A DNA stretch of 64,000 nt from a virus, in IMG/VR virus record IMGVR_UViG_3300036791_001056, positions 82,954-146,953 of that record; one strand, given 5' to 3'. The translations under genes and the position numbers were made by a program. The notes below the pieces were generated by a model, which was not told the origin of the DNA, ran no database searches, and saw only the letters and a list, made by a program, of their open reading frames with translations. This document shows, piece after piece, positions 895 to 58,720 of the stretch (positions are counted from its first letter, which is position 1; each line of letters begins with the position of its first letter).

Positions 895-3800
895 TCAACT
901 GATTCCGCGGATCTTGAGGATCTCGCGCCAGGCAGCTTCCCGCTGCGCTGGGTATGGAGTGGTGCGCCAGTCGTGCTCCAACTCCATCAACCTCATGGCT
1001 TGAATGCGCTCCGCGCTCTCTGCCATGGTCGGCGCCGCCGGCGCCGAGGTCTGCATCTTCTGGATGGGCGCAGCGAGAGCCGCGCCCCGGTATGCGAACA
1101 CAGCCGGGTCAGGCTGCGCGCTCAGCTGGCTGAGCGTCTTCGCCTGCTTCTTCAGCAGCTTGGCCTGCCGCCGCACGGTCGCCTGCAGCTCGGTGAGCTG
1201 CTCGGTAATGACGTCCGGTGCCGCCGCGGTGAGCTCTACACTCTTAGTCACCAGCTCACCGGTAACCTGCTCACCCTTGGTGAGCTGGCGCGGCACCGCC
1301 GGCATCTTCATGGTCTCCGGCGCCGCGTCGGGCTCCTTCTTGGCGCCCTCACCGTGCATGGGACAGATGTCAGGGAACGTTTGCTGGATGTGATCGTGGA
1401 TCGCCTGCATCGCGGTGCGAGTGGTCTCGCGGCCCGCGTGAGAGTAGAACGTCCGGCCGGCCTTGGCGGCGACCACGTCGCTGATGGCCTTGCTCACCGC
1501 TGCTGACGCGCTGGGAACGCCGTTCGGAGTCCCGCTCCCCGGGCTCATCGCGGCGTGGCCATCGCTGAGGAACGGGCGCTTGAACTGCGCCGCCTCGATC
1601 TCGCCCGAGGTGATCGGCGTCTGGTTCGGGCTTCCGTAAGCCGGAGACGGCGCTGCGTGACCCGCGCTGATGTACGGCCGCTGGAATTGACCTGGCTGGC
1701 AAGCAGCGGGCGTCGGAGCAGTTCCCGGGCCCGGATTCGCGTCACCGAACGCCTTGTGCAGCTCCTCGTGCGCCTCCCACACGTCAGCGGGCACCGCGTG
1801 CTTCAGCGTGCTGGCGTGGTGACCGAGCTGCGCCGCGCGCGCTGCCTCGTGGTACGGCAGCGACGTGGCCATGTCCAGCGACTTGACCTGCCACTCCACC
1901 TCATTGATCTCAGCCGCGAGGCTGCGGTCCGGGTAGCACTTAACGATCATCTCCGGGCTGAACGCGGCGCACGTCATGTCGTGCAAGACGCCCATCGTCA
2001 TGGGAACGCCTGACTTGACGATGCGCGCCAGCGCCAGCGCCCCCGACTCGCTCTTCAGCGCCGGCGCCTCCAGCGGTCCGGGTGCCTCATGGTCATCGTC
2101 CTGCATGTGCGCGTCATCCTCGAGCGCCTCAACCGCAGCGCCGTCGGGCTCGCGGTGCGCGGGAGCCTCCTCGGTGTGCATGCCCCGGGCGCTCGCCGCC
2201 TCAGCGGGCGACTCACTCTTCTCGATGAGCTCAGCGCTCACCTCAGCGCTCTCGCTCTTCTTGACGCCCGTCTTATCAGGCGTCTCGCCCACGCTGCCGC
2301 CGGCCGGAGCGCCGCAGCCGGGACAGAACCGGCTCTTACCCTTCATCGCGCCGCCGCACTTACCGCACGTGACCTTGCCCTTCAGCGCCTCAGCTGCCAC
2401 GCTCTTCCTCACCCGCGTGCCGGACCCGCCGCAGTCCGGGCACTTCCGGTTACCGCCCATGATCTTACCGGCGCCTCTGCACGTCTTGCACTTCTTCCCG
2501 GCAGGCTTGAACGCCTTCTCAGCCGAGTCATCACTCACGCGGCGCGCCACGGCGCCGTCTCCGTCACCGTCCGCGTCGAAGAGCCCATCACCGTCGTGAT
2601 CAGCGTCACCGCTGCCCTCCACCACGATCTTGGTCTCCTTCTCGCCCTTCTCAACCGGATCGCCAGCAGTTGCCGTGCTCTCAGCCTTCTCAGCCGAGTC
2701 ATCAGCATCGCTGTCATCACTGCGATCAGCCACGCCGTTCACGTTGCCCGTGCCGCTGCAGTCCGGGCACTTCATGTGACCGTCACGGATCTTCCCGCCA
2801 CCGTGGCACGTAGTGCACGTGCCGCCGATCTTCAGGACCTCAGCCTCATCTGCCGTCTTAGCGGTGTCCGGTAGTGCTGCCACGAACTCGGGCCCCTTCT
2901 CGTGGGCGATGCGCTTAATGTTGGCCTGCAGCTGCTCGGTGGAGTAGTTGTCATCACCGGCGCGCCCCACCGACTGCCACGCGTCAGAGACGTCGCCCGG
3001 GCTGGTGATCGGGAATGACCGGTTGCGGCCGGCAAACGCCGAGCTGGGCAAGGTGGCGCGATCCACGCCGCCAGGATGCGTGTCCTCACCCACGTTGCCG
3101 GACTTGCGCTTGCCAATGATCCGCGCCAAGTCAGCCGGCGTGACGGCCACACTCACGTCCTCCGGCAGCTCGAGCGTCACCATCTTTTCTGCCACTGCTG
3201 CCGTCACACCGGCTCCTTTCCTCGTATAATCAGGCTTTGGGACGGCTCCCATGCCGTGAGTGTGGGCTAGCCCCCAGTCAACCAGCACACCGTCCCGCGT
3301 GACCGGCCGCAGCTGATGGTTCGTTACGGCCTCTTCTTGAGCGCGATGCATCTCTTCGTGCATGGCTACGAGCTCATCTTTGCCAGACTTCTTCTTACCA
3401 GTCCTCCGGCCAATGCCCGGCAGCCCGGAGTGGTACGAGTCCATGTGAGCCCGGAGAGCACCGGCGCTCATCCGGTCAGCCGTCGGGTGATCATTCGGGA
3501 TCGCGTCTCCGCCGATCTTCAGCCAGCCGTGCCGGAATGTGTCAGGAGTACCAGGAATGTGATGATCGTGGATGCTGTCCTTGGTAAGCACGCCGGTGCT
3601 GATCATCTTCTGGATGAACTCATCATTGCCCGTGATCTCACCGCTCAGCTCAGGTGACCCGTCCTTGGCCGCCTTCACGAGCTGAATGGCGCAGTTCTTG
3701 TTCGCGGGCCGGTCCACCAGGCTGATCTCCACGACCTGCCCGCCCTTGATGAGCCCGCCCCGGGCGCGCCCGTCGCGGACGATCTGCGGCCGCGCGATCC

Positions 3801-25432: not shown

Positions 25433-26092
25433 GTGTTAATGATGTTCAGCGAGAGCGTGACCAGCCGGCTGGTTAACTGGAAGTTCGAGTCTGCTGAGCG
25501 GCTGATGCGCACTGAGCGGGAGCAAGAGCCGGGTAAGTATGAGGGAGATGAGTGGGACACCGTCACAGCGCTCGCGCAGACGCTCGGGAACTCGGGCTGG
25601 TTCTCCGGATCGCTCAGTGACGTCGTTCGCGCAGCGGTGGCGTGGCTGATACAGCAGCCGCTGAACGCACCAGACGATGACTCTTCCGGCAGTGAGGTCG
25701 TGACCGACTTGCTCGCAGCTGATGTCGCGCGGCGCGTTGCCCGCGAGTGCCTGGTCATCGGTGTACCGGACATTGAGCACTGGCCCGTTAACGCCAGTTC
25801 GAACTGTTGCTGTCGCGCTGGCAACAGCGGCATCGTCTGCGGTGCGTTAACTTATCGTGATTATGGAAGTGGTGAGCTGTTCACGGCAACGTGTGAGGCT
25901 GAGCTCAGCGGGCACACGCTCGCTGAGTTGCGCCAGAGCATCATCCGGCACCTGTGCAGCACCTCTCACGTCCGAGATCCATACGTGTCAGGTGGTACGT
26001 TCATGCTGAGCAGCACACCCCGTGACACCTTCAGACAGTCCGAGCCTGATCAGCCGGGCAGTGTGAGTGCACCACCGGCCGCATCATTCTGA
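25433..26092 (+). CDS. Hypothetical protein
   Basis: Continues the plus-strand operon; RBS-like GGAG. Confidence 0.55.
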   Translation: MLMMFSESVTSRLVNWKFESAERLMRTEREQEPGKYEGDEWDTVTALAQTLGNSGWFSGSLSDVVRAAVAWLIQQPLNAPDDDSSGSEVVTDLLAADVARRVARECLVIGVPDIEHWPVNASSNCCCRAGNSGIVCGALTYRDYGSGELFTATCEAELSGHTLAELRQSIIRHLCSTSHVRDPYVSGGTFMLSSTPRDTFRQSEPDQPGSVSAPPAASF

Positions 26093-26346
26093 GCATCTCT
26101 CAGCCAAGCGTAACTTAGTTAAGATGAGTGAAGACAAGCAAAACCGAGATCAGCGACAGCAAAGACAAGTGCAAGCCTAGCTTACTCAGTGATTAGCTAA
26201 GCGCAGCGCAGTTAAGATCGGCGCAGTTAAGATCGATTAAGATCAGCAAAGCAAAGCTCAGCGCGACCAAGCTGAGACCAGCACGGCAGCAGAGCCTGAT
26301 AAAGCGAAGATAAGATCAGCAGAGTGCTCAGCGCAGCGCGGCGTAG
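26092..26346 (+). ncRNA. Pentamer AGY-NN array (candidate guide RNA)
   Basis: e.g. AGC TA AGC GC AGC GC AGT TA AGA TC GGC GC AGT TA AGA TC GAT TA AGA TC AGC AA AGC AA AGC TC. Intergenic, with several in-register runs. Confidence 0.8.
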
Positions 26347-37403: not shown

Positions 37404-37468
37404 GGCACAGCACAACACAGCACTGCGCAGCAGAGAACAGATCAGCACAGCAGACCGCAGCTCAGCGT
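37404..37468 (+). ncRNA. Pentamer AGY-NN array, 13 units
   Basis: GGC AC AGC AC AAC AC AGC AC TGC GC AGC AG AGA AC AGA TC AGC AC AGC AG ACC GC AGC TC AGC GT. Confidence 0.75.
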
Positions 37469-49339: not shown

Positions 49340-49359
49340 AGCTTCGCACCTCTCTGAAG

Positions 49360-49419
49360 GCTCTGCTTTGACACGCTATGCTCGTCTTTGCCATGCTTGT
49401 CTTTGCTGCGGATAGTTGA
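49360..49419 (-). ncRNA. Pentamer AGY-NN array, 12 units
   Basis: Plus strand gctct gcttt gacac gctat gctcg tcttt gccat gcttg tcttt gctgc ggata gttga; fills an intergenic gap. Confidence 0.7.
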
Positions 49420-51242: not shown

Positions 51243-51340
51243 GCTGTCCTGTGCTGAGTTAACACTGGGCTATGCAATGCACCGGTGAGCTGAACTTTGC
51301 TAGACTTCTCTACGCTCCTGGCTGGCTGAAGCTGAGCTAA
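51243..51340 (-). ncRNA. Pentamer AGY-NN array
   Basis: Plus strand actgg gctat gcaat gcacc ggtga gctga acttt gctag acttc tctac gctcc, plus flanking units. Confidence 0.65.
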
Positions 51341-51504: not shown

Positions 51505-51610
51505 ACTGCGCTGAGCTGAACCTACGGTTAGCTTGACTTAGCTAGACCGAGCTGATCTACGCTCCACTGATCCACGCTGATGTATGCTAAGCTGAGCTAC
51601 TCTCTGCTGT
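51505..51610 (-). ncRNA. Pentamer AGY-NN array, 18 units in register plus 3
   Basis: Plus strand cctac ggtta gcttg actta gctag accga gctga tctac gctcc actga tccac gctga tgtat gctaa gctga gctac tctct gctgt. Confidence 0.8.
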
Positions 51611-56366: not shown

Positions 56367-57050
56367 CTAGTCACCGGCGCTCGCTGGCGCTGATCGCGCG
56401 GCGGCCGCGTTCTTCAGCCCCTGCCGGTACTCACGCATCCGCCGCCGCTTACACTCCTTGCACTGGTAATCGACACCTGACGGGCGCTTGGTGTTCCGCC
56501 AGAAGGCGTCGCGCGGCAGGTCAGTCTTCTTACACGGCCCGCTGCAGCTGAACAGCTGTGCTATGAGGAAGCCCTGCTCATCGCGTGCTCCGTCCGGCGG
56601 CTCGGTCTCCAGCTGGCCGACAGGCACAGCCAGGGCGGCCACGACGTCACCGAGCGCCTCAGCCGGCACCTGACTCACGACAGCCGGCAGCACGGCGCCG
56701 CTCTGGCGGCGAGCGCTCACGACGGCCGCGGCGAGCGGCGCTGACGGCATGCTGGAGATGAGCTGCAGCTGCCGCCTGACCGCGGCGGACTGAGCCAGCG
56801 AGATGCCCGCTGCGGGCAGCGGGGCCTGCGGGGTCCCAGCCCACTGCGTGACTGCCCGCCGGCACCGGCTGTCGGTGTAAGCGTCGATGACGTGCATCAG
56901 CCGGGAGACGAATACCGGGTCGCAGTGCCATCCCAGCGTCTGCCACACCGCTGCTTCAACCGTCTCCCGGTTGACGACGGTACTGCCCGGCACCAAGTCG
57001 AGAGCCCGAGAGAGCAGGGGCCGCCTCGTTGATCGCATGATTAACGGCAA
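56367..57050 (-). CDS. Hypothetical protein with C-terminal zinc finger
   Basis: CSGPC...F...QCKECK. Confidence 0.6.
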   Translation of the reverse strand: MPLIMRSTRRPLLSRALDLVPGSTVVNRETVEAAVWQTLGWHCDPVFVSRLMHVIDAYTDSRCRRAVTQWAGTPQAPLPAAGISLAQSAAVRRQLQLISSMPSAPLAAAVVSARRQSGAVLPAVVSQVPAEALGDVVAALAVPVGQLETEPPDGARDEQGFLIAQLFSCSGPCKKTDLPRDAFWRNTKRPSGVDYQCKECKRRRMREYRQGLKNAAAARSAPASAGD

Positions 57051-57096: not shown

Positions 57097-57225
57097 GGTG
57101 ATCTGTGCTCTGCTGTGGTATTCTCGGACAGGCTTAGCTCAGCTTAACTACGCCATGCGGTGCTGCGGTATGCTAATCTTACAGGCTCAGCTTTACTGCG
57201 CCAGTGCCGGTTGCGGTGAGATCAG
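57097..57225 (-). ncRNA. Pentamer AGY-NN array downstream of the RAMP partner gene
   Basis: 17 in-register units at 57097-57181 (ggtga tctgt gctct gctgt ggtat tctcg gacag gctta gctca gctta actac gccat gcggt gctgc ggtat gctaa tctta), plus a shifted run. Confidence 0.8.
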
Positions 57226-57231
57226 AAGATG

Positions 57232-57789
57232 TCACCTGCCACGCGGCCAGGCTGGCTGTTTCACTGGCCGCTCGTACCGGCTCGTGATGACCTCGCCATC
57301 AACTGGCGCCGCCGGCTCAGCCTCTCCGAACAGCGCTGCCTCGATGCGCTCAATGCGGTCTTCAACCGCCGTCATCCGGCGGTGCAGGCCCACGATGATG
57401 GTCCGCGTCGCCATGAAGCGCTGGTACTCCGAGTCCGTCATGCCGGTCGTGTCACCGTGAGTCACGACCTCGAGGGCGCGGCCCATCTGCCGGTCGGCCC
57501 GCATCCGGTGACCCTGCGCCACCACGGCCAGCTCGCTCGGCTTGCCGACCCGGTAGCCCTGGCCGCGCGCCGCGATGAGGACGCGGCCGTAATCACGCAG
57601 CAGCAGTGGGCGAGCGGCGGTGACGGCGGCGCGGATGACGGTCTTGAGATCCGGGTCACCGCTGATGCCCAGGGACTGGGCGAGGTGCTCGAAGGTGAGC
57701 AGCTGGCCGAAGGCTGCCTCAGCGGCGATGCTGGCGATGATGGACCGCTGAGAGCGGTCTCCCTTAGGCTGGAATCGTGTCATGGTCAC
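57232..57789 (-). CDS. Winged-helix-like + coiled-coil protein in the RAMP operon
   Basis: LLTFEHLAQSLG...LIAARGQGYRV wing motif; flanked by arrays on both sides. Confidence 0.65.
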   Translation of the reverse strand: MTMTRFQPKGDRSQRSIIASIAAEAAFGQLLTFEHLAQSLGISGDPDLKTVIRAAVTAARPLLLRDYGRVLIAARGQGYRVGKPSELAVVAQGHRMRADRQMGRALEVVTHGDTTGMTDSEYQRFMATRTIIVGLHRRMTAVEDRIERIEAALFGEAEPAAPVDGEVITSRYERPVKQPAWPRGR

Positions 57790-57830
57790 TTCCTGTGTTC
57801 CTAACTCAGTTCCTGGTGTGATGCGCCGTA

Positions 57831-57970
57831 CCTGTACTGCGCTTTTCTGCGCTGAGCTTTACTCCACTTAGCTGATCTTATCTTAACCCTGCTGATCACA
57901 GCTAGGCTGTGCTCTGGTTAGCTCTGCTAAGCTACTGTGTGCTGATGCTTCGCCTACGCTTAGCTTAGTT
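57831..57970 (-). ncRNA. Pentamer AGY-NN array directly after the RAMP gene, 21 units in perfect register
   Basis: Minus strand AGC TT AGC AG AGC TA ACC AG AGC AC AGC CT AGC TG TGA TC AGC AG GGT TA AGA TA AGA TC AGC TA AGT GG AGT AA AGC TC AGC GC AGA AA AGC GC AGT AC AGG. Confidence 0.85.
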
Positions 57971-57976
57971 ATGTGA

Positions 57977-58600
57977 TCAGCTCGTGATCTTGGAGATCTC
58001 CGGCGTGAAGCGCCCGTAGCCAATGCGCCGGGCGTTGCACAGGCCCTGCCGGCCGGTGATCTCCATGATGGTGACGAAGTCGTCCCAGTTGATGGCGTCG
58101 AGCATGACGACCATCTCGGACCGCAGCGCCCAGTCGCGGAAGATCGGCCGGACCCGGACGCCCATCGACCTGGTCGCGGTGGTCGGAGTGAGGTTCACGA
58201 TGGTCTTGAACTGGAAGCGCGAGTCCTCCCAGAGTCCCTTGATGGTGCGCGGCCCATCGTACATGATGGGCAGCTCAGCCTGCACGAGCTGGACGGCGCC
58301 GCGCTCGATGGCCTTGCCGAGGCGCAGGGCCCGAGCTGCCTGCGTCATCGCGGCCATCACGCACTTCGCCGGGACGATCGGGATCCCGGCGCCGTCGGTG
58401 TACAGGCCCATCCGCCACTCCAGGGCGAACACCTGCTCCTGCTCGGCCTCGGTGAGCCCCTTCTTCTTAACGAGCGCGTCCTTGTCCTTCCGCAGCGGGT
58501 CGATCATCGCCTCGATGTTGTCGAGGACCAAGCCGCTCTCACCGGTGAAGACCACGTTGGCCCGGGTGAACCCCTCGAAGGTGGACGTTGCTGCTGGCAT
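57977..58600 (-). CDS. Stand-alone Cas7/RAMP-like protein (Vipr-like)
   Basis: First strand VVFTGESGLVL; PIVPAKCVMAAM (equivalent to the RAMP IPGSSIKG helix); RVRPIFRDW; C-terminal glycine loop GLCNARRIGYGRF. No cas1/cas2 or CRISPR array in the window. Confidence 0.75.
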   Translation of the reverse strand: MPAATSTFEGFTRANVVFTGESGLVLDNIEAMIDPLRKDKDALVKKKGLTEAEQEQVFALEWRMGLYTDGAGIPIVPAKCVMAAMTQAARALRLGKAIERGAVQLVQAELPIMYDGPRTIKGLWEDSRFQFKTIVNLTPTTATRSMGVRVRPIFRDWALRSEMVVMLDAINWDDFVTIMEITGRQGLCNARRIGYGRFTPEISKITS

Positions 58601-58628
58601 CTCTGCTCCATTCGCTGGTGTGCTGGGT

Positions 58629-58703
58629 GCTGAACTGAGCTGAGCTCAGCCGTTCTTCACTGAGCTTAGCTGGGCTAGGACATGCTCTGGCCTGCTGTGC
58701 TAG
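58629..58703 (-). ncRNA. Pentamer AGY-NN array forming the 5' leader of the RAMP gene, 15 units
   Basis: Plus strand gctga actga gctga gctca gccgt tcttc actga gctta gctgg gctag gacat gctct ggcct gctgt gctag. Confidence 0.8.
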
Positions 58704-58711
58704 CTGGACTC

Positions 58712-58720
58712 ACTATACCA
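58712..58720 (-). promoter_or_regulatory. Extended -10 promoter of the RAMP/array operon
   Basis: TGGTATAGT 8 nt before the first array unit; no clear -35. Confidence 0.6.

What the first reader, a model, noticed from the sequence alone, without database searches (positions are those of the whole stretch)
57097..58720. Stand-alone RAMP/Cas7-like gene embedded in 5-nt-periodic AGY-NN arrays: candidate non-CRISPR RNA-guided system
Seen: one minus-strand unit runs promoter > 15-unit array > 207-aa protein > 21-unit array > wHTH-like gene > 17-unit array. In each array, three of every five bases are near-constant (AGC/AGT/AGA, occasionally GGY) and two vary freely. That is unlike a microsatellite (no expansion of identical units) and unlike a CRISPR. 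The protein has the RAMP hallmarks: first beta strand, P-x-x-P helix and a C-terminal Gx(6)GYGRF loop. Known: Cas7 RAMPs polymerise along guide RNA with a fixed nucleotide step. From memory (unverified), VIPR systems pair a lone phage RAMP with GGY/NN RNAs whose NN bases specify a gapped DNA target. Inference: one protomer binds each pentamer, the triplet is a handle and the NN bases are the guide, probably used against competing phages or elements or to repress transcription.
Basis: partly seen in the sequence, partly recalled or inferred. Interest (0 to 1): 0.97.

Follow-up and report, generated by a model that had tools for sequence, protein, structure and literature searches.

The report
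Phage VIPR system with AGY guides
This 147-kb uncultured phage carries a VIPR system, a CRISPR-related RNA-guided DNA silencer first described in 2026 preprints, so the kind is known; what is unusual is that its guide repeats use A-G-Y where the published ones use G-G-Y, and the protein residues that read the first base have changed to match.

Summary
Three minus-strand arrays of 15, 21 and 16 pentamers (AGY+NN) flank two genes behind a TGGTATAGT promoter element. Genome-wide there are 22 such arrays against 0 in 20 shuffles.

The 207-aa protein is a Vipr. It matches the solved SUSP1 Vipr (PDB 36pp, E 3e-6), and its confident AF2 model has a Csm3/Cas7 RAMP fold. The 185-aa gene is a Vap1 homologue (hhalign 94.9%).

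What differs is the handle: AGY instead of GGY.
- In 26 loci, all 12 AGY loci have Asn at the column of SUSP1 Asp177 and Asp/Asn at His17, the two residues that read G1.
- All 14 GGY loci have Asp177.
- The AGY systems form one clade, so this is one evolutionary switch.

There is no SUSP1-type 3' tail or other separator. The arrays sit in mRNA leaders and gaps between genes.

I found no credible target, in the phage's own genome or in public collections. Expression, Vipr binding and DNA silencing are inferred from homology.

This scan's earlier AI notes already report AGY-type VIPR on this genome and on other DNA.

Verdict: new variant of a known kind, moderate interest.

The parts
58712..58720 (-). 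Probable promoter: extended -10 element TGGTATAGT, about 10 nt upstream of array A
   Evidence: Read from the sequence. TGGTATA[AG]T occurs 11 times in the 147-kb, 64% GC genome: 7 on the + strand within genome 8265-87113 and 4 on the - strand within 131183-141673. The sigma-70 scan found no -35 partner, so this is inference.
58627..58701 (-). Array A: 15 AGY/NN pentamers in the leader of the vipr mRNA (candidate vrRNA)
   Evidence: No stable fold (z -1.55).
57977..58600 (-). vipr: 207-aa lone RAMP protein (Vipr family). The G-loop is GLCNARRIGYGRF, with Asn189 where SUSP1 has Asp177.
   Evidence: PDB 36pp_D 'SUSP1 Vipr protein', E 3.4e-6 over residues 26-203. phrog_4652, E 5.7e-20. AF2 pLDDT 94.7. 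Foldseek top hits are Csm3/Cas7 chains, E 5e-7. 1380 cluster representatives at E<=1e-3.
57829..57933 (-). Array B: 21 AGY/NN pentamers between vipr and vap (candidate vrRNA or vrRNAs)
   Evidence: Fold z -0.69.
57232..57789 (-). vap1-like accessory gene, 185 aa (the likely true start is the ATG at 57783). N-terminal winged-helix-like domain followed by a long helical hairpin.
   Evidence: Profile A5 against the gene directly downstream of SUSP1 vipr: hhalign 94.9%, E 4.7e-8, shared GxGYRV motif. phrog_5926, E 3e-11. A homologous ORF was found downstream of or near vipr in 22 fetched loci. AF2 pLDDT 87. Only weak winged-helix fold hits.
57100..57179 (-). Array C: 16 AGY/NN pentamers downstream of vap, more degenerate than A and B
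   Evidence: Fold z -1.09.
56367..57050 (-). Next gene in the same direction, 227 aa, with a C-terminal Cys-rich motif. It is syntenic only in the closest relatives, so whether it belongs to the system is uncertain.
   Evidence: Homologues follow vap in L001 and L003. Weak PHROG hits to Lar-like and endonuclease VII zinc motifs over residues 168-220. No terminator between array C and this gene.
26195..26289 (+). Further AGY/NN array in the window, 19 units, away from the vipr locus
37404..37468 (+). Further AGY/NN array, 13 units
51529..51608 (-). Further AGY/NN array, 16 units, in a gene leader
51262..51316 (-). Further AGY/NN array, 11 units
49358..49407 (-). Further AGY/NN array, 10 units

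Best explanation
This is a phage VIPR system of the vipr + vap1 kind.

The operon (inferred): it is transcribed from the TGGTATAGT element, and the three AGY/NN arrays are parts of that transcript.

Mechanism, by homology to SUSP1:
- Vipr protomers polymerise along an array, one per pentamer.
- Two neighbouring protomers sequester each A-G-Y triplet.
- The NN bases are left exposed and pair with a double-stranded DNA target that has one skipped base after every two read.
- With Vap1, the bound filament silences transcription of a rival mobile element.

What is specific to this clade (shown here as a sequence correlation): the first base of the handle is A rather than G. The two residues that read G1 in the SUSP1 structure have changed with it: His17 to Asp27, and Asp177 to Asn189.

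Processing (inferred): there is no 3' pseudoknot tail and no tRNA-like separator, so guides are probably defined by the Vipr footprint after host RNases trim the unprotected mRNA.

Leader effect (inferred): binding to array A in its own leader could also feed back on vipr translation.
For: The protein:
- Full-length hit to the solved SUSP1 Vipr and to phrog_4652.
- tblastn finds SUSP1 itself, other enterobacterial phages including Felixounavirus records, and actinophages Trine, LittleE and MakoManhole.
- The AF2 model (pLDDT 94.7) has a Csm3/Cas7 fold.

The partner gene:
- Vap1 homology.
- A vap homologue is encoded downstream of or near vipr in 22 loci.

The arrays:
- Real and non-random.
- On the vipr strand in every relative.
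- The same caller recovers the published GGT/NN arrays of SUSP1, a positive control.
- The scaffold is kept while NN content turns over. Syntenic arrays of the window and L001 (Vipr 82% identical) share no more NN than order-shuffled arrays do.

Handle and protein co-variation:
- 12 of 12 AGY loci have Asn at the Asp177 column and Asp/Asn at the His17 column.
- 14 of 14 GGY loci have Asp177, and 12 of 14 have His17.
- The structural roles of these residues come from the paper's text.

Phage context: terminase, Dda-like helicase and Ant/Bro genes.
Against: - There is no RNA or binding data.
- I found no natural target under the 1-nt-skip rule. Own-genome matches are at chance. Exact-pattern scans of viral, metagenome and genome collections gave nothing, or two chance-level hits.
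- I found no conserved 3' tail, although one caps SUSP1 vrRNAs. Guide boundaries are therefore unknown.
- The AGY systems are one clade (98/98 support), so the residue-to-base correlation is a single evolutionary event, not repeated co-variation.
- Four Viprs with Gly, Gly, Glu or Ser at the Asp177 column still have GGY arrays. Losing the Asp does not by itself change the handle.
- The 1-nt-skip rule has been shown only for SUSP1-type systems.
Confidence: 0.8

Rival explanations
1. Vipr and the arrays act on the phage's own RNAs rather than as trans-acting DNA guides. Vipr would coat AGY/NN leaders and spacers to stabilise transcripts, time translation or mark processing sites.
For: The arrays are dispersed over the whole genome (22 of them). 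Many lie directly between a promoter-like element or a stop codon and the next ribosome-binding site, and three lie flush between tRNA genes. There is no guide-capping tail. No target was found.
Against: A cis-binding site would not need the hypervariable NN seen in syntenic arrays. The protein and its partner are homologues of a system shown to silence DNA in trans. Solo or dispersed vrRNAs are also reported for SUSP1-like phages and satellites.
Confidence: 0.1
2. The system is RNA-guided but targets RNA rather than DNA, as type III Csm3/Cmr4 backbones do.
For: The closest solved folds in the structure library are Csm3 and type VII Cas7 chains, which line RNA-targeting complexes.
Against: That structure library predates the Vipr entries. 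By sequence the nearest solved protein is SUSP1 Vipr, which binds dsDNA on either strand. The partner Vap1 is a predicted DNA-binding protein.
Confidence: 0.06
3. The pentamer tracts are a compositional or DNA-level feature of this phage's intergenic DNA, unrelated to the RAMP gene.
For: The tracts occur far from vipr. Position 4 is A/T-biased.
Against: In all 12 AGY loci from different phages, the arrays hug vipr and vap on the coding strand. The constant triplet tracks the protein's G-loop residue. No shuffle produced an array (0 in 20).
Confidence: 0.03

Closest known systems
Type II VIPR of Escherichia phage SUSP1 and the Pseudomonas fulva prophage (Vipr + Vap1 + vrRNAs); bioRxiv 10.64898/2026.04.26.720920, 10.64898/2026.04.26.720927, 10.64898/2026.10.15.759431
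   Same: - A lone ~200-aa Vipr RAMP (sequence hit) followed directly by a Vap1 homologue.
- Arrays of about 10-20 pentamers upstream and downstream on the same strand, each with a constant triplet and two variable bases.
- Phage-encoded.
   Different: - The handle is AGY, not GGY.
- The G1-reading residues are Asp27/Asn189 instead of His17/Asp177, and Trp178 is Ala190.
- No pseudoknot tail was detected.
- The arrays are embedded in mRNA leaders and inter-cistronic gaps, and 19 more are scattered over the genome.
- Vipr identity to SUSP1 is only about 23%.
- The legend of the first preprint lists GGY>AGY among handle substitutions tested in SUSP1, and the text says that perturbing GGY abolished silencing. 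I could not see the figure.
GGY-type VIPR loci with the same G-loop length (GLGDARK/RLGYGRF) in IMG/VR contigs, and actinophage loci (Mycobacterium phage LittleE gp34/33, Gordonia phages Trine gp41/40 and MakoManhole gp78/77)
   Same: - Sister lineages of the AGY clade in the Vipr tree.
- A vap homologue is encoded at or near vipr in these loci.
- IMG/VR loci also end their arrays with a recurring terminal unit.
   Different: - They use GGC/NN.
- They carry Asp at the Asp177 column and mostly His at His17.
- MakoManhole and LittleE have tRNA-like T-arm elements after arrays. This locus has none.
Non-canonical VIPR repeat units reported from a genomic language model survey (bioRxiv 10.64898/2026.10.21.760802: GAC/NN, CAC/NN, WGT/NN, TGH/NN) and the YNNNG/NNNGG/NNNNG repeats of the first VIPR preprint
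   Same: Shows that VIPR handles other than GGY exist and sit beside Vipr-like folds. Formally, AGY/NN is a YNNAG repeat and so falls within YNNNG, and AGT falls within WGT.
   Different: AGC/AGY is not named in any text I could read, and the figures and tables were not available. I found no link to the G1-reading residues in the text I could search.
CRISPR class 1 backbone RAMPs (Csm3/Cmr4/Cas7)
   Same: RRM core, thumb hairpin and glycine-rich loop. Foldseek E about 5e-7, TM 0.52-0.56.
   Different: No CRISPR array, no other cas genes, and no second RAMP. The step is 5 nt with three bases displaced, rather than a 6-nt step with one flipped base.

Membership tests
VIPR system (Vipr + vrRNA) | Vipr protein: a minimal single-RRM RAMP with G-loop and thumb, homologous to characterised Viprs | tested here: met
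   - PDB 36pp_D SUSP1 Vipr, E 3.4e-6, near full length.
- tblastn recovers SUSP1 and other enterobacterial phages, including Felixounavirus records.
- AF2 pLDDT 94.7 with a Csm3/Cas7 fold.
- Conserved R151-P, W157 and G196.
VIPR system (Vipr + vrRNA) | Flanking tandem 5-nt repeats with a constant triplet and a hypervariable dinucleotide, on the vipr strand | tested here: met
   Three arrays of 15, 21 and 16 units. The same holds in 11 other AGY loci. NN has turned over between close relatives.
VIPR system (Vipr + vrRNA) | Canonical GGY triplet (YNNGG repeat) | tested here: not met
   The triplets are AGC 27, AGA 7 and AGT 6 of 52, with GGY only 3 of 52. The preprints do allow 'a related consensus', including YNNNG. 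This fails the canonical motif but not the family.
VIPR system (Vipr + vrRNA) | Carried by a virus or provirus | tested here: met
   The window holds a large terminase subunit, a Dda-like helicase and an Ant/Bro protein. The contig is 146,953 bp with 40 tRNA genes.
VIPR system (Vipr + vrRNA) | The arrays are expressed as small RNAs that co-purify with Vipr | not testable with these tools
   No transcriptome or biochemistry is available. There is only a promoter-like element upstream of array A.
VIPR system (Vipr + vrRNA) | Guides match natural DNA targets under the 1-nt-skip rule | tested here: inconclusive
   Own genome at chance for skips 0-3. Relatives' guides against this genome at chance. 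Exact scans gave 0 hits, or 2 chance-level hits. The host is unknown, and mismatch-tolerant collection scans were not possible.
Type II VIPR (SUSP1 / P. fulva clade) | vap1 accessory gene directly downstream of vipr | tested here: met
   hhalign 94.9%, E 4.7e-8 to the gene directly downstream of SUSP1 vipr, with a shared GxGYRV motif. I take that gene to be vap1 from its position; the record annotates it only as a hypothetical protein.
Type II VIPR (SUSP1 / P. fulva clade) | An invariant structured 3' tail (a pseudoknot in the SUSP1 clade) capping each vrRNA | tested here: not met
   - No shared sequence after the 22 arrays.
- No Rfam hit.
- Intergenic folds are not more stable than shuffles.
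A short terminal unit could still act as a cap.
CRISPR-Cas (class 1) | CRISPR repeat-spacer array plus a multi-gene cas operon | tested here: not met
   The only repeats are the 5-nt arrays. The neighbours are vap1, a Cys-rich protein and small unknown ORFs. No PADLOC defence family hit.

The most novel reading that the evidence does not exclude
The A-for-G change in the handle, with the matched His17-to-Asp/Asn and Asp177-to-Asn changes, makes AGY-type Viprs orthogonal to GGY-type ones: neither loads the other's guides. The switch would then have been selected so that a phage's silencer cannot be hijacked or diluted by rivals' decoy or solo GGY vrRNAs, a tactic the October 2026 preprint describes for satellites. 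It would also provide a second, independent channel for programmable silencing. In this phage, dispersing 22 tail-less arrays through leaders and tRNA spacers would be a distinct way of producing guides.
Probability: 0.3. Interest if true: 0.6.

Novelty: new variant of a known kind. Interest (0 to 1): 0.45.

Why it matters
VIPR is a months-old class, and its published rules come almost entirely from GGY systems of enterobacterial and Pseudomonas phages.

A natural clade that reads AGY, with changes at exactly the two residues that contact G1 in the solved structure, gives a testable recognition rule for the handle (Asp for G, Asn for A). It also offers a candidate orthogonal scaffold for multiplexed silencing.

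The tail-less arrays embedded in mRNA raise the question of how guides are cut out here.

None of this changes the basic picture. The locus is a further example of a known system, not a new one.

Tried and rejected
1. Self-targeting. The best own-genome matches of all 22 arrays under skip 0, 1, 2 or 3 are no better than order-shuffled guides; the highest z, about 3, is for the trivially periodic skip-3 rule.
2. Cross-targeting by relatives. Arrays of L001, L003 and L004 against this genome, in 9-unit windows, are at chance.
3. Public targets, exact 1-nt-skip patterns.
   - Array A (10 units) and array B (11 units) in IMG/VR: 0 hits.
   - Array B in JGI metagenomes and in GTDB genomes: 0 hits.
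   - Array A in metagenomes: 2 hits. About one hit is expected by chance on my rough estimate of the collection's size. One lies in an ATP synthase alpha gene of an AT-rich organism. The other lies in an unannotated ORF. The five flanking units match 6/10 and 3/10. I rejected both as chance.
4. Host or prophage copies of AGY-type Vipr in 185,579 species genomes: none.
5. A general code at the Asp177 column. Viprs with Gly, Gly, Glu or Ser there still have GGY arrays. DNA for the informative His/Asn and Ala/Ala cases could not be fetched.
6. A conserved 3' tail, ribozyme or known RNA family: none.
7. DNA similarity of the locus to deposited phages: none.
8. Pfam and PADLOC are silent for Vipr and Vap.
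I repeated it by reference.
Full report
**Observation**

On the minus strand the region reads as follows:
- TGGTATAGT at 58720-58712.
- Fifteen pentamers at 58701-58627.
- A ribosome-binding site and a 207-aa ORF at 58600-57977.
- Twenty-one pentamers at 57933-57829.
- A 185-aa ORF at 57789-57232. Its homologues begin at the residue that corresponds to the ATG at 57783.
- Sixteen pentamers at 57179-57100.
- A 227-aa ORF at 57050-56367.

In the 52 units, position 1 is A 44 times, position 2 is G 46 times and position 3 is C or T 43 times. Position 5 is unbiased. Position 4 varies but is A/T in 41 of 52. Fifteen of the sixteen dinucleotides occur at NN.

A phase-aware caller finds 22 such arrays in the 146,953-bp genome and none in 20 shuffles. 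Nineteen of the 22 lie outside every ORF of 120 aa or more.

**What the protein is**

- Pfam and PADLOC give nothing.
- A search of PDB sequences returns 'SUSP1 Vipr protein' (36pp_D), E 3.4e-6, residues 26-203 against 18-190 of 202.
- PHROGs gives phrog_4652, of unknown function, at 5.7e-20.
- tblastn against deposited phages finds 125 records. They include phiSUSP1, SUSP2 and other enterobacterial phages, among them Felixounavirus records. They also include Gordonia phages Trine and MakoManhole, Mycobacterium phage LittleE and Pseudomonas phages.
- An exhaustive HMMER search finds 1380 cluster representatives at E<=1e-3.
- With 78 of these as the alignment, AlphaFold2 gives pLDDT 94.7 and pTM 0.88.
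- Foldseek's best solved matches are Csm3 and type VII Cas7 chains, E about 5e-7 and TM 0.52-0.56. That structure library stops before the Vipr depositions.

**What is known about the family**

Three preprints describe VIPR.
- Discovery preprint (10.64898/2026.04.26.720920):
  - VIPR is a lone Vipr RAMP plus an accessory vap gene in phages, flanked by vrRNAs of 9-16 YNNGG units (GGY/NN) with a conserved 3' tail.
  - The NN bases read double-stranded DNA with one base skipped per unit.
  - The system silences rival mobile elements.
  - Seven types are described, with some alternative repeats (NNNGG, YNNNG, NNNNG).
- Cryo-EM preprint (10.64898/2026.04.26.720927):
  - One protomer binds per repeat.
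  - G1 is read by His17 and Asp177.
  - G2 lies between Arg138 and Trp178.
  - Y3 sits in a pocket of the next protomer.
- Third preprint (10.64898/2026.10.15.759431): it shows that Vipr and Vap1 are both needed against a satellite, and it describes decoy solo vrRNAs.
- A survey (10.64898/2026.10.21.760802): it reports 21 clusters with non-canonical triplets (GAC, CAC, WGT, TGH).

**The second gene**

A homologue is encoded downstream of or near vipr in 22 of the loci I fetched, of both AGY and GGY type. It sits next to vipr in Trine, LittleE and MakoManhole.

A profile of 19 homologues matches the gene directly after SUSP1 vipr at 94.9% probability, E 4.7e-8, with a shared GxGYRV motif. I take that gene to be vap1 from its position.

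The AF2 model (pLDDT 87) has three helices and a beta hairpin, followed by two long helices. Foldseek gives only weak winged-helix matches, to OmpR-type domains, ScpB and MarR, at E of 0.014 or worse.

**Do relatives keep the arrays?**

Yes. The closest relatives (L001, L003, L004; Vipr 67-82% identical) have AGY/NN arrays in the same three gaps. So do nine IMG/VR loci found through the GNAR(K/R)(L/I)G loop.

As controls, the same caller recovers GGT/NN arrays beside SUSP1 vipr and GGC/NN arrays in LittleE, MakoManhole and Trine. It also finds GGC/NN in 12 IMG/VR loci with a G(L/I)GD(A/G)R loop.

Syntenic arrays of the window and L001 share no more NN than order-shuffled arrays do, while the vipr coding DNA is 83% identical.

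**Handle and protein change together**

I aligned 27 Viprs from loci and mapped the SUSP1 contact residues onto them.
- All 12 AGY loci have Asn at the Asp177 column and Asp or Asn at the His17 column.
- All 14 GGY loci have Asp177, and 12 of the 14 have His17.
- Arg138 is invariant.

Asp for G and Asn for A is also the rule in pentatricopeptide-repeat RNA recognition. That point is my own knowledge, not tested here.

Two limits apply. First, the AGY loci form a single clade with 98/98 support, nested among GGY lineages, so this is one switch and not repeated co-variation. Second, Viprs with Gly, Gly, Glu or Ser at that column still sit beside GGY arrays, so the Asp is not strictly required for G.

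**How guides are made here**

- I found no conserved sequence after the arrays and no Rfam family.
- No fold is more stable than shuffles; z runs from -0.7 to -1.6.
- There is no terminator within the unit.
- TGGTATA[AG]T occurs 11 times in the genome, on the + strand in the left part and on the - strand in the right arm. One copy lies about 10 nt before array A.

I infer a single transcript from which Vipr-covered stretches survive trimming by host RNases. Elsewhere in the genome, three arrays lie flush between tRNA genes, where RNase P and RNase Z would release them.

**Targets**

None was found. The own genome is at chance under every skip rule, and so are relatives' guides against this genome.

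Exact-pattern scans of the viral, metagenome and genome collections gave no hit, or two hits that I judge to be chance.

The host is unknown, and no AGY-type Vipr was found in GTDB species genomes. Absence of self-targets fits a weapon aimed at other elements, but it does not show one.

**Comparison and verdict**

The locus works like the SUSP1-type VIPR system and is a member of that family: a Vipr homologue, a Vap1 homologue, pentamer arrays and a phage carrier.

It fails the canonical GGY motif and lacks the SUSP1-clade tail. I therefore file it as a variant within the family rather than as a type II member in the strict sense.

I could not find AGY or AGC named in the searchable text of the four preprints. 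However, YNNNG and WGT/NN overlap it formally, and I could not read their figures or tables.

Earlier AI notes of this scan report AGY-type VIPR on this same genome and in at least three other phages, one noting the lost acidic residue. I reached the same reading independently and tested it on 26 loci.

Interest is moderate: a known kind, with a clean and testable specificity switch.

Noticed in passing
genome 38389-38722 (outside the window, about 44.3-44.6 kb before its start): Three AGY/NN arrays lie flush between tRNA genes (Lys - array - array - Arg - array - Arg) inside the phage's block of 40 tRNA genes. RNase P and RNase Z would release them as discrete RNAs.
   Followed up: partly
window 26082-26340 (+), 37404-37468 (+), 49358-49407 (-), 51262-51316 (-), 51529-51608 (-): Five further AGY/NN arrays far from vipr. 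Two are followed by GC-rich hairpins that look like terminators; the others by a ribosome-binding site. In each case the polarity follows the local gene direction.
   Followed up: partly
window 57100-58701, position 4 of the pentamers: The first variable base is A or T in 41 of 52 units, and in 70% of units genome-wide, in a 64% GC genome. The second variable base is unbiased. Relatives such as L013 do not show this. I do not know whether it reflects target composition or a constraint of the filament.
   Followed up: no
L009-L017 (IMG/VR AGY loci) and L027-L030 (GGY loci): Arrays in relatives often end with a recurring terminal pair of units: AGCAC-AGCAC-AGA/AGG in the AGY loci and GGCAT/GGCAA-GGTTT in the GGY loci. 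This may be a minimal cap or nucleation site standing in for the SUSP1 tail. It is only faintly visible in the window, where arrays A and C end in AGCAC.
   Followed up: no
L007:1641-1772 and 2885-3235 (Gordonia phage MakoManhole); L006:3634-3997 (Mycobacterium phage LittleE): GGC/NN arrays in these cultured actinophages are each followed by a repeated element resembling a tRNA T-arm plus acceptor (GGTTCGA.TCC...). It is a likely processing handle. In Trine, an array lies inside the annotated 5' end of gp40, which suggests a mis-called start.
   Followed up: no
window 56367-57050 (-): The 227-aa protein after array C is conserved in synteny in L001 and L003. It ends in a Cys-x2-Cys-containing motif with weak PHROG hits to Lar-like and endonuclease VII zinc modules. 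It may be an extra accessory of this sub-clade.
   Followed up: partly
genome-wide; window 58712-58720, 56349-56341, 50629-50621, 48230-48222: TGGTATA[AG]T occurs 11 times in the genome. All 7 plus-strand copies lie at genome positions 8265-87113 and all 4 minus-strand copies at 131183-141673. It is probably this phage's promoter -10 element.
   Followed up: partly
A1 alignment, protein P0016: One Asn-type Vipr keeps His at the His17 column, so it is a possible intermediate in the G-to-A handle switch. Its DNA could not be fetched, so its array type is unknown.
   Followed up: partly
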